From: Candidatus Micrarchaeota archaeon
Lineage (GTDB): Archaea > Micrarchaeota > Micrarchaeia > Anstonellales > Anstonellaceae
Reading direction: 5' to 3'
NCBI GenBank assembly: GCA_023248665.1
Contig: JAHFEC010000001.1
Coordinates: 1-26,140, forward strand
DNA length: 26,140 nucleotides
Below, piece after piece: positions 16,399 through 18,225 of this stretch. Within the stretch, counting starts at the first letter, position 1. The number at the start of each line of letters is the position of its first letter. The notes beneath the pieces were generated by a model. That model was given only the letters and a program-made list of their open reading frames with translations, did not search any database and had not been told where the DNA came from. A program made the position numbers and the translations under genes.

Positions 16399-16845
16399 AT
16401 GATTACGGGAATCCGCATCGACAGCGTCGAAGCCAAGCGCTCATCCAACGAGGAGATCCGCGGCCTCGACGTCAACATCGGCATCGACAACGTCAAGACG
16501 GCCGGGCAGGAGATCGAAGTGGCCTTCACCTACAACGTCGCCTACCGCGAGACGGTCGGCTATCTCAAAATGTCCGGCTCCCTGCTGTCCCACGAGGATG
16601 CCAAGCTCTCCAAGGAAATATCGGATTCATGGGCCAAGGACAAGAAGCTCCCCGACACCTACTCCGAGCTGGTGCTCAACGCCATCAACTTCACCTGCGG
16701 CACCAACGGCGTGCTCGTCGTGCGCCCGGTCAATCTCGCGCCCCCGATGGTGCCCCCGCGAATCGAGATCGCCAAGGGCCCGGCAATGCCGGCACAGCCG
16801 CCTTCAGGCCGGGCGGGAAGAATGGGCGGCTCCGGCTCATCGTGA
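16399..16845 (+). CDS. Conserved archaeal protein, SecB-like fold probable
   Basis: Four beta-strand pattern then WAKDKKLP...VLNAIN and RPVNLAPPMVPP, as recalled for archaeal SecB-like proteins; stop codon lies inside the IS right end. Confidence 0.7.
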   Translation: MITGIRIDSVEAKRSSNEEIRGLDVNIGIDNVKTAGQEIEVAFTYNVAYRETVGYLKMSGSLLSHEDAKLSKEISDSWAKDKKLPDTYSELVLNAINFTCGTNGVLVVRPVNLAPPMVPPRIEIAKGPAMPAQPPSGRAGRMGGSGSS

Positions 16846-17005
16846 ATTACCACCCGCTAAAGCGGGTGGCGTCCTGCTTCAAAGACGAAAGCTTAGCTTC
16901 ATCTCCACAGGCGTTACTTCCCGCATCGGCCCTTGGGGCCGATGGGGCACCGCCGGCTCCCAAGAGCCGGCGATTGCCGGCCATTCCGGCCGTAGCTCGT
17001 GTGAG
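16826..17005 (-). ncRNA. Predicted TnpB omega (re)RNA: scaffold from the IS right end plus about 16-nt flank-derived guide
   Basis: Overlaps the tnpB 3' end; several hairpins, AAGTAACGCCTGTGGAG segment, terminal TCAC. The 5' boundary is approximate. Confidence 0.7.
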
Positions 17006-18147
17006 TATATTGATGGCCGCATTTATATCCCTGTCCAAAACAAGGCCGCAGGAGGGGCAATGATGGGTTCTCTCCCATAGGCCCTTCTGGACAAAGGCAT
17101 GGCAGCCGCTGCATTCTTTACTAGTATTTTTTGGGTTCACCAACACGACCTCCGAACCGGCACTCGCAGCCTTGTAGCAGAGCATATGCGTGAACATTCC
17201 CCAAGACGCGTCATGGATGCCTTTGCCATGGCCTTCTTCGGCCATTTCCTTGATTCCTAAATCTTCCATGACAATCTTGGAGTAGTTGGACAGGAGCCGA
17301 TTAGCAGTTTTGTGGAGATAATCTTTCCTGGCGTTGGCCATCTTCTCATGCACCAAGGCCACCCTCTTTTTGGCTTTGGCTCGATTGTGGCTTCCTTTGC
17401 GCTTTTTGGATAAGAGGCGCTGCTCTTGCGCCAGCTTCCGCTCAAATTGGCGGAAAATGCGGGGATTTTCAATGAATTTCCCGTCTGAAAGAGTGGCCAG
17501 GCGGTTGAGGCCCAAATCCAGGCCAACGGCAGGCCCATGGTTCACTCTTGGAGTTGGAGGCTCTTGCTCGACTGTGAAAATGGCGTGCCACTTGCCGGAA
17601 AGCTCCCGCTTGAGGCAAAGGGTCTTGATTTTGCCCTTCATCATCCGGTGCCGGACGATGGGAATTTCGCCAAATGGGGAGACGTCAAGCTTCTTGTCCA
17701 AAGAGAAGCCGGATTGGGGATATAGAATACTCCTCATTCTGTCGAATGACTTGAATCTTGGGAAACCCCATTTGAGACCTTTTCTCTTGGCCCTGATTTT
17801 GGCTTTGAGCGAGCGGTCCAAGTTCTGGACCACGGATTGGGCGGCTTGGGAATAGAGGCCCTGTCCTTTGGCATACTCCCGCATCTCCTTCACGGAGAGA
17901 AAGGTCTGCTCTTTCTCATACTTTTCCTTGGTTTTCTCCAAGAGGGTATTCCAGAGATTCTTCTCTATCCAGAGGTGGCGGTTCAACTCCTTCTCTTGGG
18001 CCTCGGAGGGATACAGCCTGAATTTGTAGGCTCGCATAAAGAGATGACGCTGCGCCCGATGATATGGCTTTGGAGAGGGTGGCTTTCCGGTCTTTTCCGC
18101 CGTATCTGACCCGCTGAAGCGGGTAGGGTTGGCGGTCTAGAACTACC
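16842..18147 (-). mobile_element. TnpB-only IS200/IS605-family element (IS1341-type), about 1.3 kb
   Basis: Right end: hairpin CCACCCGC-TTTA-GCGGGTGG then TAATTCAC (end 16842). Left end: hairpin ACCCGC-TTCA-GCGGGT (18124-18109). TAM TTAG at 18151-18148. No tnpA. Confidence 0.88.
16847..18037 (-). CDS. tnpB: TnpB RNA-guided endonuclease
   Basis: RAYKFRLYP, GFPRFKS, RuvC GLDLG / VMEDL / DRDINAA intact, zinc finger CSGC...CPSC. Confidence 0.97.
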   Translation of the reverse strand: MRAYKFRLYPSEAQEKELNRHLWIEKNLWNTLLEKTKEKYEKEQTFLSVKEMREYAKGQGLYSQAAQSVVQNLDRSLKAKIRAKRKGLKWGFPRFKSFDRMRSILYPQSGFSLDKKLDVSPFGEIPIVRHRMMKGKIKTLCLKRELSGKWHAIFTVEQEPPTPRVNHGPAVGLDLGLNRLATLSDGKFIENPRIFRQFERKLAQEQRLLSKKRKGSHNRAKAKKRVALVHEKMANARKDYLHKTANRLLSNYSKIVMEDLGIKEMAEEGHGKGIHDASWGMFTHMLCYKAASAGSEVVLVNPKNTSKECSGCHAFVQKGLWERTHHCPSCGLVLDRDINAAINILTRATAGMAGNRRLLGAGGAPSAPRADAGSNACGDEAKLSSLKQDATRFSGW

Positions 18148-18165
18148 CTAAGGGGATAAAATAAC

Positions 18166-18225
18166 GCGCCCGGTTAACGGGCGCAATCCGGGCCGCCCGG
18201 GCGGCCCAACTTTTTTGTTTTTTTT
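18166..18225 (+). terminator. Two GC hairpins plus long T-tract, probable original terminator of the SecB-like gene
   Basis: GCGCCCG-gttaa-CGGGCGC (18166-18184), GGGCCGCC-cg-GGCGGCCC (18190-18207), then TTTTTTGTTTTTTTT. Confidence 0.65.

What the first reader, a model, noticed from the sequence alone, without database searches (positions are those of the whole stretch)
16826..18225. Phenotypically silent TnpB element: inserted at a stop codon and replaced it with its own end
Seen: the right-end guide GACG (16873-16870) abuts its hairpin and fits terminal TCAC; the left-end guide AACC (18130-18127) fits TTAG at 18151-18148. Known: the same guide/cleavage pairing rule holds for IS608 (AAAG/TTAC, GAAT/TCAA). 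Removing 16842-18147 restores ...TCA TC|C TAA; with the IS the gene reads TCA TCG TGA. Both encode Ser-Ser-stop, and the likely terminator lies beyond the IS at 18166-18225. Inference: a TTAG TAM (CTAA on the other strand) targets TAA stops, and the TCAC end donates TGA, giving a harmless insertion route in gene-dense genomes.
Basis: partly seen in the sequence, partly recalled or inferred. Interest (0 to 1): 0.78.

Follow-up and report, generated by a model that had tools for sequence, protein, structure and literature searches.

The report
Transposon end replaces a stop codon
A small TnpB-carrying jumping gene in a tiny Micrarchaeota archaeon landed exactly on a host gene's stop codon and supplies a new stop from its own last bases, so the protein is unchanged; this follows from the known end rules of its transposon family and is a tolerated landing site, not a demonstrated preference.

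Summary
A 1306-bp tnpB-only IS200/IS605 element (16842-18147, top strand = window minus strand) lies 3' of TTAG and ends in TCAC. Both tetranucleotides pair with the guides AACC and GACG by the IS608 rule. The convergent 148-aa host gene reads TCA TCG TGA with the element and TCA TCC TAA without it. A congener lacking the element ends the same gene at the same residue (TCG TCC TAG), followed by the same hairpin and T-run.

The swap recurs. A 49-bp copy in this genome does it to a radical-SAM gene (CTC TAA to CTG TGA). A distant family member in another genus does it to a wHTH gene.

The cause is structural. Target TTA-N and element end TCA-C are in register, and their complements are TAA and TGA. 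The end TTCAC is the known ISGst2 transposon-encoded motif.

A stop-codon preference is not shown. Only 3 of 9 mapped insertions of this subfamily touch a stop, against 17% of non-coding TTAG sites (p about 0.2). Others sit in a uL11 leader, beside a truncated ogt, or in spacers. No empty allele was found in run contigs and no tnpA in this genome.

Verdict: a new member of a known kind, with a neat corollary I did not find published. Earlier notes of this scan report the same on other genomes.

The parts
16842..18147 (-). Whole tnpB-only IS200/IS605 element (1306 bp); no terminal inverted repeats and no target duplication
   Evidence: Borders come from three copies in the genome whose similarity ends at TTAG| and |after TCAC. 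Junctions are bridged by run contigs.
16847..18037 (-). tnpB, 396 aa, apparently intact. RuvC acids in GLDLG (172-176), MEDL (257-260) and DRDINAA (335-341); zinc finger CSGC/CPSC.
   Evidence: Pfam OrfB_IS605 5.6e-30, Cas12f1-like_TNB 2.6e-24, HTH_OrfB_IS605. NCBIfam guided_TnpB 295 bits. Aligns to the ISDra2 TnpB structures 8bf8/8exa, E 3.5e-38. Motif positions.
16842..16845 (-). Right cleavage site (transposon-encoded motif) TCAC. Its complement supplies G+TGA, the present stop of the host gene.
   Evidence: Read. TTCAC ends the 13 aligned family right ends and nearly all others listed (two end TCCAC; the decayed C85 copy ends AGCG). It is the same motif as the ISGst2 TEM (PMC10055086).
16850..16869 (-). 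Right subterminal hairpin (IP_R)
   Evidence: DNA fold z -3.6. The stem covaries in 13 relatives, with 6-7 double changes per pair.
16870..16873 (-). Right guide GACG, pairing with TCAC
   Evidence: IS608 rule from PMC3201880. Relatives have GAAG or GACG at this place.
16846..17075 (-). Omega-RNA scaffold region overlapping the 3' end of tnpB. It carries a 56-nt insert (about 16915-16975) not seen in 12 relatives.
   Evidence: RNAalifold: 16 of 31 pairs keep pairing through double changes. No Rfam family matched.
18106..18126 (-). Left subterminal hairpin (IP_L)
   Evidence: DNA fold.
18127..18130 (-). Left guide AACC, pairing with TTAG
18148..18151 (-). Target / presumed TAM TTAG in the flank. 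On the + strand this is C+TAA, the displaced original stop codon (18149-18151).
   Evidence: TTAG flanks 8 of 9 left ends of the subfamily. An empty site in G004 carries TTAA at the homologous place, so the motif belongs to the flank.
16399..16845 (+). Host gene, 148 aa, no Pfam/NCBIfam family. Its last codon is TC+G and its stop TGA comes from the element.
   Evidence: Homologues found in 39 of 41 related genomes. The G005 orthologue is 90% identical over 1-148 and ends ...GGSS-TAG.
16822..16841 (-). Flank that the omega-RNA guide would copy (GATGAGCCGGAGCCGCCCAT). Together with TTAG it exists only in the empty allele.
   Evidence: Sequence. Function is inferred from the TnpB homing model (PMC10055086).
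18166..18225 (+). Hairpins plus T6/T8 runs: the host gene's likely terminator, now 1.3 kb from the gene
   Evidence: The same GC hairpin and T-run follow the stop in the element-free G005 locus.

Best explanation
This is a non-autonomous, tnpB-only IS200/IS605 element of the ISGst2/IS608 end type.

How it got there (inferred from the family mechanism): a Y1 TnpA supplied in trans pasted the single-stranded circle 3' of TTAG on the window's minus strand. That TTAG was the complement of C+TAA, the last base of the final Ser codon plus the stop codon of a convergent gene.

Why the protein is unchanged (shown from the sequence): in this family the target (T-T-A-N) and the element's own 3' end (T-C-A-C) share the T-x-A core in the same register relative to the cut. 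Their complements are TAA and TGA. The element therefore pushes the old stop 1.3 kb away and puts TGA in the same frame. Only the third base of the last sense codon changes, C to G, which is silent for Ser and Leu.

What this means: the effect is an automatic corollary of the known target/end code. It makes TAA stops of convergent genes tolerated landing sites in a gene-dense genome, and selection against disruptive insertions then leaves such copies visible. The TTAG target raises the share of such sites, but no active preference for stops is demonstrated.

Inferred, not shown: TnpB with its omega-RNA (guide = flank after TCAC, TAM = TTAG) would cut only the empty allele and so help retain the copy.
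For: - Borders, hairpins and guide pairing are confirmed.
- The element-free orthologue in G005 ends at the same Ser-Ser with its own stop and terminator.
- Second case in this genome: the 49-bp copy on C128. There the AmmeMemoRadiSam radical-SAM gene (TIGR04337, 1.7e-84) ends GTC CTG TGA on the element end. The rebuilt site is GTC CTC TAA, and five congeners end the gene at the same Leu with TAA, TAG or TGA.
- Third case: G065, in another genus. A 478-aa wHTH gene ends CTG TGA on TTCAC. Four of five relatives end at that position (three ...L*, one ...I*); the fifth ends 7 residues further on.
- A probable fourth case is a Bud32-like kinase gene in G063.
- TTCAC ends nearly all of about 45 family right ends and covaries with a G-A-x-G guide. 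It equals the ISGst2 TEM, which was tested by excision assays (PMC10055086).
- Census of TTAG sites in this genome: 1211 sites, of which 531 lie in genes, 562 are intergenic and 118 overlap stops.
Against: - No empty allele of this very population was recovered. The run contigs show only filled junctions, and contigs hide rare variants.
- No tnpA was found in this genome, which is 73% complete. The tnpA loci of three congeners do not carry this element's hairpin.
- The rebuilt junction and the alternative (TCAC as flank, TTAG as element) give the same protein. The choice therefore rests on the family mechanism, on TTCAC being constant while left flanks vary, and on one empty site in G004 that carries TTAA at the TTAG position.
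- My gene calls for the census are home-made and rough.
Confidence: 0.8

Rival explanations
1. Adaptive stop-codon targeting. The TTAG target and TCAC end were selected because together they aim the element at TAA stops and repair them. Insertions should then be concentrated on stop codons.
For: - All three copies in this genome touch a stop codon.
- Of the six target motifs compared (TTAG, TTTAA, TTAA, TTAT, TTAC, TTTAT), TTAG has the highest share of stop-overlapping sites outside genes: 17%, against 5-12% for the other five.
- The subfamily differs from its TTTAA-type relatives exactly in this motif.
Against: - Across the subfamily only 3 of 9 insertions touch a stop (p about 0.2 against 17%), and convergent swaps are 2 of 9 (p 0.24).
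- Other copies lie in the uL11 leader, beside a truncated ogt, 8 nt past a stop, or in AT-rich spacers.
- In the wider family about 4 of 45 right ends carry a verified swap, close to the share of available sites.
- TnpA reads four bases on single-stranded DNA and has no known way to sense reading frames.
Confidence: 0.15
2. Alternative junction. TTAG is the first four bases of the element and TCAC is host flank, so the gene always ended TCG TGA and nothing was replaced.
For: - It gives the same protein.
- The C85 copy lacks TCAC after its right hairpin and has AGCG instead.
Against: - TTCAC follows the right hairpin at about 45 unrelated sites in many genomes and matches the right guide by the IS608 rule.
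- In ISGst2 this motif is experimentally element-borne (PMC10055086).
- The empty site in G004 homologous to the G002:C169 insertion already holds TTAA where G002 has TTAG.
- The G005 orthologue has C TAG aligned with C TAA.
Confidence: 0.04
3. Assembly artefact: the contig wrongly joins a repeat to the gene end.
For: The element is a repeat. Its depth is about 3x the flanks in run X1, and contigs of congener G002 break inside it.
Against: - Logan contigs from two runs cross the right junction (489-nt record covering 16387-16875, no mismatch).
- They also cross the left junction (696-nt record covering 18109-18500).
- The flanks are syntenic with G005: the same gene, terminator and next gene.
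Confidence: 0.01

Closest known systems
ISGst2-type IS200/IS605 elements of Geobacillus stearothermophilus (Meers et al. 2023, PMC10055086)
   Same: - Same architecture: target motif in the left flank, TTCAC as the transposon-encoded motif at the right end, and DNA guides 5' of the subterminal hairpins that covary with the motifs.
- tnpB with its omega-RNA at the right end.
- PATE derivatives exist.
- TnpB cuts the donor joint.
   Different: - The target here is TTAG instead of TTTAT.
- The host is an archaeon (Micrarchaeota).
- There is no tnpA in the element or in the genome as assembled.
- That paper does not mention stop codons (0 occurrences).
IS608 of Helicobacter pylori (PMC3201880)
   Same: - The C/G pairing rule applies exactly.
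- TTAC/TCAA share the same T-x-A cores, whose complements are TAA and TGA. The same stop swap is therefore expected there.
   Different: - IS608 carries tnpA.
- Spacings differ: the left site is 21 nt from the hairpin foot against 19, and the right site 4 nt against 10.
- The swap has not been tested for IS608 here.
Terminal-only PATEs, e.g. the 52-bp derivative of ISHwa23 in Haloquadratum walsbyi (PMC3119063)
   Same: The 49-bp copies (G000:C128, G002:C16) are a left end plus one hybrid hairpin plus a right end. This is what a core deletion between the two near-identical palindromes would leave.
   Different: The hybrid keeps the left guide AACC next to the right site TCAC, so by the pairing rule right-end cleavage should fail. 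It probably fixes the donated TGA for good.
IStrons (IS605/IS607 fused to a group I intron; PMC4227781, bioRxiv 10.1101/2023.11.20.567912)
   Same: Another way in which an IS200/IS605 relative becomes phenotypically silent inside genes.
   Different: IStrons rely on RNA splicing. There is no intron here (no Rfam match), and silence comes from a 4-base end motif and works only at TAA stops of convergent genes.
IS605B stem-loop remnants overlapping the last 8 nt and the TAA of Borrelia lipoprotein genes (PMC2775950)
   Same: IS605-type end sequence overlapping the 3' end and stop codon of a host gene.
   Different: There the left-end sequence overlaps a co-directional gene. No replacement of the stop by the right end was described.

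Membership tests
IS200/IS605 family, tnpB-only (IS1341-type) element | TnpB with OrfB_IS605 RuvC-like domain, zinc ribbon and intact D-E-D | tested here: met
IS200/IS605 family, tnpB-only (IS1341-type) element | Subterminal imperfect palindromes at both ends on the same strand; no terminal inverted repeats; no target duplication | tested here: met
   Hairpins fold. The ends GGTAGTTC... and ...TAATTCAC are not inverted repeats, and the flanks TTAG and GATG are not duplicated.
IS200/IS605 family, tnpB-only (IS1341-type) element | Insertion 3' of a fixed tetra/pentanucleotide that pairs with a guide 5' of the left hairpin; right cleavage site pairs with the right guide | tested here: met
   TTAG flanks 8 of 9 left ends. 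AACC/TTAG and GACG/TCAC fit the IS608 rule.
IS200/IS605 family, tnpB-only (IS1341-type) element | Y1 HUH transposase TnpA (in cis or in trans) | tested here: not met
   PF01797 was not found in G000, which is 73% complete. It is present in 3 of 6 congeners, but without this hairpin nearby. The element is therefore non-autonomous and current mobility is unproven.
IS200/IS605 family, tnpB-only (IS1341-type) element | Omega-RNA scaffold at the 3' end of tnpB ending at the right border | tested here: inconclusive
   There is a conserved, covarying structure (16 of 31 pairs). However there is no Rfam match and no RNA reads on the element.
TnpB homing nuclease with TAM equal to the transposon target | TAM-dependent, guide-dependent cleavage of the donor joint | not testable with these tools
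   This needs a TAM-library or plasmid-interference assay.
PATE (gene-less IS200/IS605 derivative) | Same ends and palindromes, too short to encode protein | tested here: met
   C85 copy of 125 bp and C128 copy of 49 bp. The G002:C16 copy has the same 49-bp form.
IStron | Group I intron between the left end and tnpB | tested here: not met
   No group I intron match in 16000-19000 at E up to 1. Only 110 nt separate the left border from the tnpB ATG.
IS607 family | Serine recombinase TnpA, no subterminal guide hairpins | tested here: not met
   Hairpins and guides are present. NCBIfam IS607_TnpB scores 153 bits against 295 for the general guided_TnpB model and 251 for IS200_TnpB.

The most novel reading that the evidence does not exclude
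The shared T-x-A core of target and right-end motifs in IS608/ISGst2-like elements makes the whole clade automatic stop-codon swappers (TTA-N gives TAA, TCA-N gives TGA). On this reading, selection in gene-dense genomes has favoured target variants such as TTAG that overlap stops on both strands. Stop codons of convergent genes would then be a general, so far unremarked refuge for IS200/IS605 elements, and donated TGAs would become fixed host stop codons once the element decays to a 49-bp scar.
Probability: 0.2. Interest if true: 0.65.

Novelty: new member of a known kind. Interest (0 to 1): 0.38.

Why it matters
- It shows concretely how a four-base end motif lets a transposon sit on a gene's stop codon without changing the protein. 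This helps explain how IS200/IS605 elements persist in 1-Mb genomes where convergent genes can abut with no spacer.
- It warns annotators that some stop codons are transposon-borne.
- It gives a clean natural pair of closely related TnpBs (70-80% identical) with different flanking targets (TTAG against TTTAA-like), useful for mapping TAM determinants.
- It is not a new mechanism.

Tried and rejected
- Stop-codon bias: the first count looked like 5 of 5. Three supposed genes turned out to be shadow ORFs of GC-rich DNA: the L034 207-codon, L054 142-codon and G002:C16 112-codon ORFs. The honest tally is 3 of 9.
- Metagenome scan for the left-end word CCGCYAACCCTACCCGCTT: five hits, all chance matches in unrelated DNA.
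- Empty allele: Logan contigs of two DNA runs show no 16841/18148 joint. The one joint seen (16897 to 18080) is the C85 mini copy. The RNA run covers only the neighbouring ATPase gene.
- Autonomous partner: tnpA loci in G003, G005 and G006 lack this hairpin and end.
- Empty site for the C85 copy: the flanks are not contiguous in any congener.
- Left borders of the more distant subfamilies: only the G065/G154 type could be assigned (TTTAA, guide AAGT fits). The others remain uncertain.
- Literature: six searches found no paper stating the TAA-to-TGA swap. This covers only the library held here.
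Full report
**What is there**

The window is contig C13 of a 1.08-Mb, 73%-complete genome. Related records name it Candidatus Micrarchaeota.

On the minus strand, 16847-18037 encodes a 396-aa TnpB.
- Pfam: OrfB_IS605 5.6e-30, Cas12f1-like_TNB 2.6e-24, HTH_OrfB_IS605.
- NCBIfam: guided_TnpB, 295 bits.
- It aligns over residues 2-373 to the ISDra2 TnpB structures 8bf8/8exa.
- It keeps the RuvC motifs GLDLG, MEDL and DRDINAA and the CSGC/CPSC zinc finger.

On the plus strand, the 148-aa gene 16399-16845 converges on it. 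Homologues of this gene occur in 39 of 41 related genomes, so it is real although it has no Pfam or NCBIfam family.

**The observation**

Every coordinate in the finding is right. Read on the minus strand, the element runs as follows:
- TTAG (18151-18148), then the cut;
- GGTAGTTCTAGACCGCC, the left guide AACC, and the left hairpin;
- tnpB;
- the right guide GACG, the right hairpin CCACCCGC-TTTA-GCGGGTGG, the linker TAAT, and TCAC (16845-16842), then the cut;
- flank GATGAGCC.

Both hairpins fold as single-stranded DNA; the right one has z -3.6.

I took the IS608 pairing rule from He et al. 2011 (PMC3201880). C-4 pairs with guide base 2, C-3 with guide base 1, C-1 with guide base 4, and A-2 is unpaired. 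TCAC then demands G-A-x-G, and GACG is found. TTAG demands A-A-x-C, and AACC is found. In 13 aligned family members the right guide is GAAG or GACG, and the hairpin stem covaries.

**Borders**

The genome holds two more copies.
- A 125-bp copy on C85: 72 nt of left end joined to 53 nt of right end.
- A 49-bp copy on C128: left end, one hybrid hairpin, right end.

Similarity to the window begins right after TTAG in both. In C128 it stops right after TCAC. The element is therefore 16842-18147, with TTAG in the flank.

One empty site supports TTAG as flank rather than element. Where G002:C169 has ...CATTCTCTTAG|element, the congener G004 has ...CATTCTCTTAA followed by unrelated spacer.

**The stop swap**

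With the element the host gene ends TCA TCG TGA. The G and the TGA are the complement of TCAC. Joining the flanks gives TCA TCC TAA.

The congener G005 (90% identical protein over 1-148) has no element. Its gene ends GGC TCG TCC TAG at the same residue. About 60 nt later come a GC hairpin and T-run like those at 18166-18225 of the window, and then the same 836-aa ATPase gene. So the gene's natural end is exactly at the insertion point, and its terminator now lies beyond the element.

**Recurrence**

- *C128.* The 49-bp copy sits between two convergent genes. One is a geranylgeranyl reductase that ends TGG TAG. The other is an AmmeMemoRadiSam radical-SAM enzyme (TIGR04337, 1.7e-84). The radical-SAM gene ends GTC CTG TGA on the element's TCAC. 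The rebuilt site reads GTC CTC TAA, with the two genes abutting without a spacer. Five congeners end this gene at the same Leu: TTA TAA, CTC TAA, CTG TAG, CTG TGA.
- *G065 (another genus).* A TnpB element of a different subfamily ends in TTCAC, and a 478-aa wHTH gene ends CTG TGA on it. Four of five relatives end the protein at that same position (three ...L*, one ...I*). The fifth ends 7 residues further on. Its left border fits TTTAA with guide AAGT, giving CTT TAA before insertion.
- *G063.* A Bud32-like kinase gene also ends on a donated TGA.

**Why it happens**

The target (T-T-A-N) and the element's own end (T-C-A-C) have the T-x-A core in the same register relative to the cut. In IS608, T-4 and A-2 contact each other at both ends. 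The complements of TTA and TCA are TAA and TGA. So whenever the target's TTA is the complement of a convergent gene's TAA stop, the right end delivers TGA in frame.

Only the third base of the last sense codon changes, from C (complement of the target's G) to G. That is silent in four-fold codon boxes.

Only that one frame is closed. In the other two frames the complement of the right end stays open, and one of them is the 348-codon shadow ORF 16017-17063.

TTCAC is the experimentally defined transposon-encoded motif of ISGst2, and its TAM TTTAT differs from it at two positions (Meers et al., PMC10055086). That paper does not mention stop codons. IS608's TTAC/TCAA have the same property on paper; I did not test this.

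**Is there a bias towards stops?**

I made rough gene calls for the genome: 1049 genes, 83% coding. I then classed all 1211 TTAG sites.

| Class of TTAG site | Sites |
|---|---|
| Inside genes | 531 |
| Intergenic | 562 |
| Complement of a TAA stop | 67 |
| TAG stop of a co-directional gene | 48 |
| Both kinds of stop | 3 |

Thus 17% of sites outside genes touch a stop. This is the highest share among the six motifs compared (TTAG, TTTAA, TTAA, TTAT, TTAC, TTTAT); the other five give 5-12%.

The census of the TTAG subfamily is below. The subfamily was found only in genus g1 among 176 genomes of the order.

| Copy | Position |
|---|---|
| G000:C13 | Convergent stop swap |
| G000:C128 | Convergent stop swap |
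| G000:C85 | Directly after the TAG of a DUF7557 antitoxin-like ORF |
| G002:C16 (49 bp) | 8 nt past a convergent TAA |
| G003:C44 (79% identical TnpB, flank TTAT) | Between a TATA-like box and the ATG of uL11 |
| G002:C74 | Beside an ogt homologue whose similarity stops at the PCHR codons |
| G002:C88 | Spacer |
| G002:C169 | Spacer |
| G002:C189 | Spacer |

That is 3 of 9 at stops. The binomial p is about 0.2 against 17%. For convergent swaps alone it is 2 of 9, p 0.24.

In the wider family about 4 of 45 right ends carry a verified swap. Stops are therefore tolerated sites and not demonstrably preferred ones. Several long ORFs that at first seemed to end on element borders were shadow ORFs.

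**Limits of 'silent'**

- The protein is unchanged, but the gene is cut off from its terminator. The first T-runs on its strand inside the element are at 17127 (T6), 17367 and 17403.
- Its mRNA now runs antisense to the omega-RNA region and tnpB. The omega-RNA guide (GATGAGCCGGAGCCGCCCAT) is antisense to the gene's last codons.
- No RNA evidence exists. The one metatranscriptome covers only the neighbouring ATPase gene.

**Mobility**

- No Y1 tnpA was found in this genome. Three of six congeners have one, but without this element's hairpin.
- Element depth in one run is about three times that of the flanks, and one further right-end flank absent from the assembly is seen. More copies therefore exist in the community.
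- No empty-allele contig was seen.
- The 49-bp form parallels the 52-bp terminal-only PATE of ISHwa23 (PMC3119063). By the pairing rule its guide (AACC) no longer matches its end (TCAC). It is probably immobile, and the donated TGA is then a permanent host stop codon.

**Novelty**

The element is a new member of a well-known kind. The stop swap is a direct corollary of the known target/end code. I found no paper stating it.

Related ideas exist: IStrons, and IS605B stem loops overlapping a Borrelia gene's last 8 nt and TAA (PMC2775950).

Earlier notes of this scan describe the same swap on at least four other genomes. Those are unchecked AI notes and not independent evidence, though one of them led me to the ISGst2 paper, which I read.

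Noticed in passing
L034:2398-3700 (G003:C44): A full-length 79%-identical copy (flank TTAT, not TTAG) sits between a TATA-like box and the ATG of ribosomal protein uL11 (Pfam Ribosomal_L11_N/L11). uL11 expression must then depend on transcription coming out of the element.
   Followed up: partly
L121:52-200 (G002:C74) vs L141:1644-1985 (G004:C31): The ogt (O6-methylguanine methyltransferase) homologue of G002 loses similarity to G004 exactly at the catalytic PCHR codons, 45 nt before the element's left end. This is a disrupted gene next to a copy.
   Followed up: partly
L003:1265-1640 (G000:C85): The 125-bp mini copy follows an antitoxin-like DUF7557 ORF. Its paralogues in G005 and G002 are followed at once by a GTG-start ORF (toxin-like). 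That ORF is absent here, and the right end reads AGCG instead of TCAC, suggesting a deletion that took the end and the neighbour.
   Followed up: partly
L028:1255-1497 (G005:C16): G000 has the 49-bp copy between the radical-SAM and geranylgeranyl-reductase genes. G005 has instead a 240-bp GC-rich, hairpin-rich insert resembling the omega-RNA part of these elements, possibly another gene-less derivative at the same spot.
   Followed up: no
window 16915-16975 (-): A 56-nt insert with two GC hairpins lies inside the omega-RNA/tnpB 3' region. It is absent from 12 aligned relatives and is read through in frame by tnpB.
   Followed up: partly
L035-L041, L043, L124 left ends: TnpBs 65-73% identical to this one have a different left end, preceded by TTTAA-like sequence instead of TTAG. 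This would be a natural target/TAM switch among close relatives. Only the G065/G154 type could be assigned with confidence.
   Followed up: partly
G000:C4:8646-9010 (L002): A second tnpB, 72% identical in DNA, is cut by the contig end.
   Followed up: no
window 16017-17063 (+): This 348-codon ORF reads through the element's right end. It is a shadow ORF with no family. Long spurious ORFs are common in this 60% GC clade and misled the first tally.
   Followed up: yes
run X1, loose end at window 16842: A 1162-nt contig joins a flank absent from the assembly (…CCACGGGAAACCT) to the right end, and element depth is about 3x the flanks. There is thus at least one more copy in the community. It does not end a long ORF, since an in-frame TAA lies 10 codons upstream.
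   Followed up: partly
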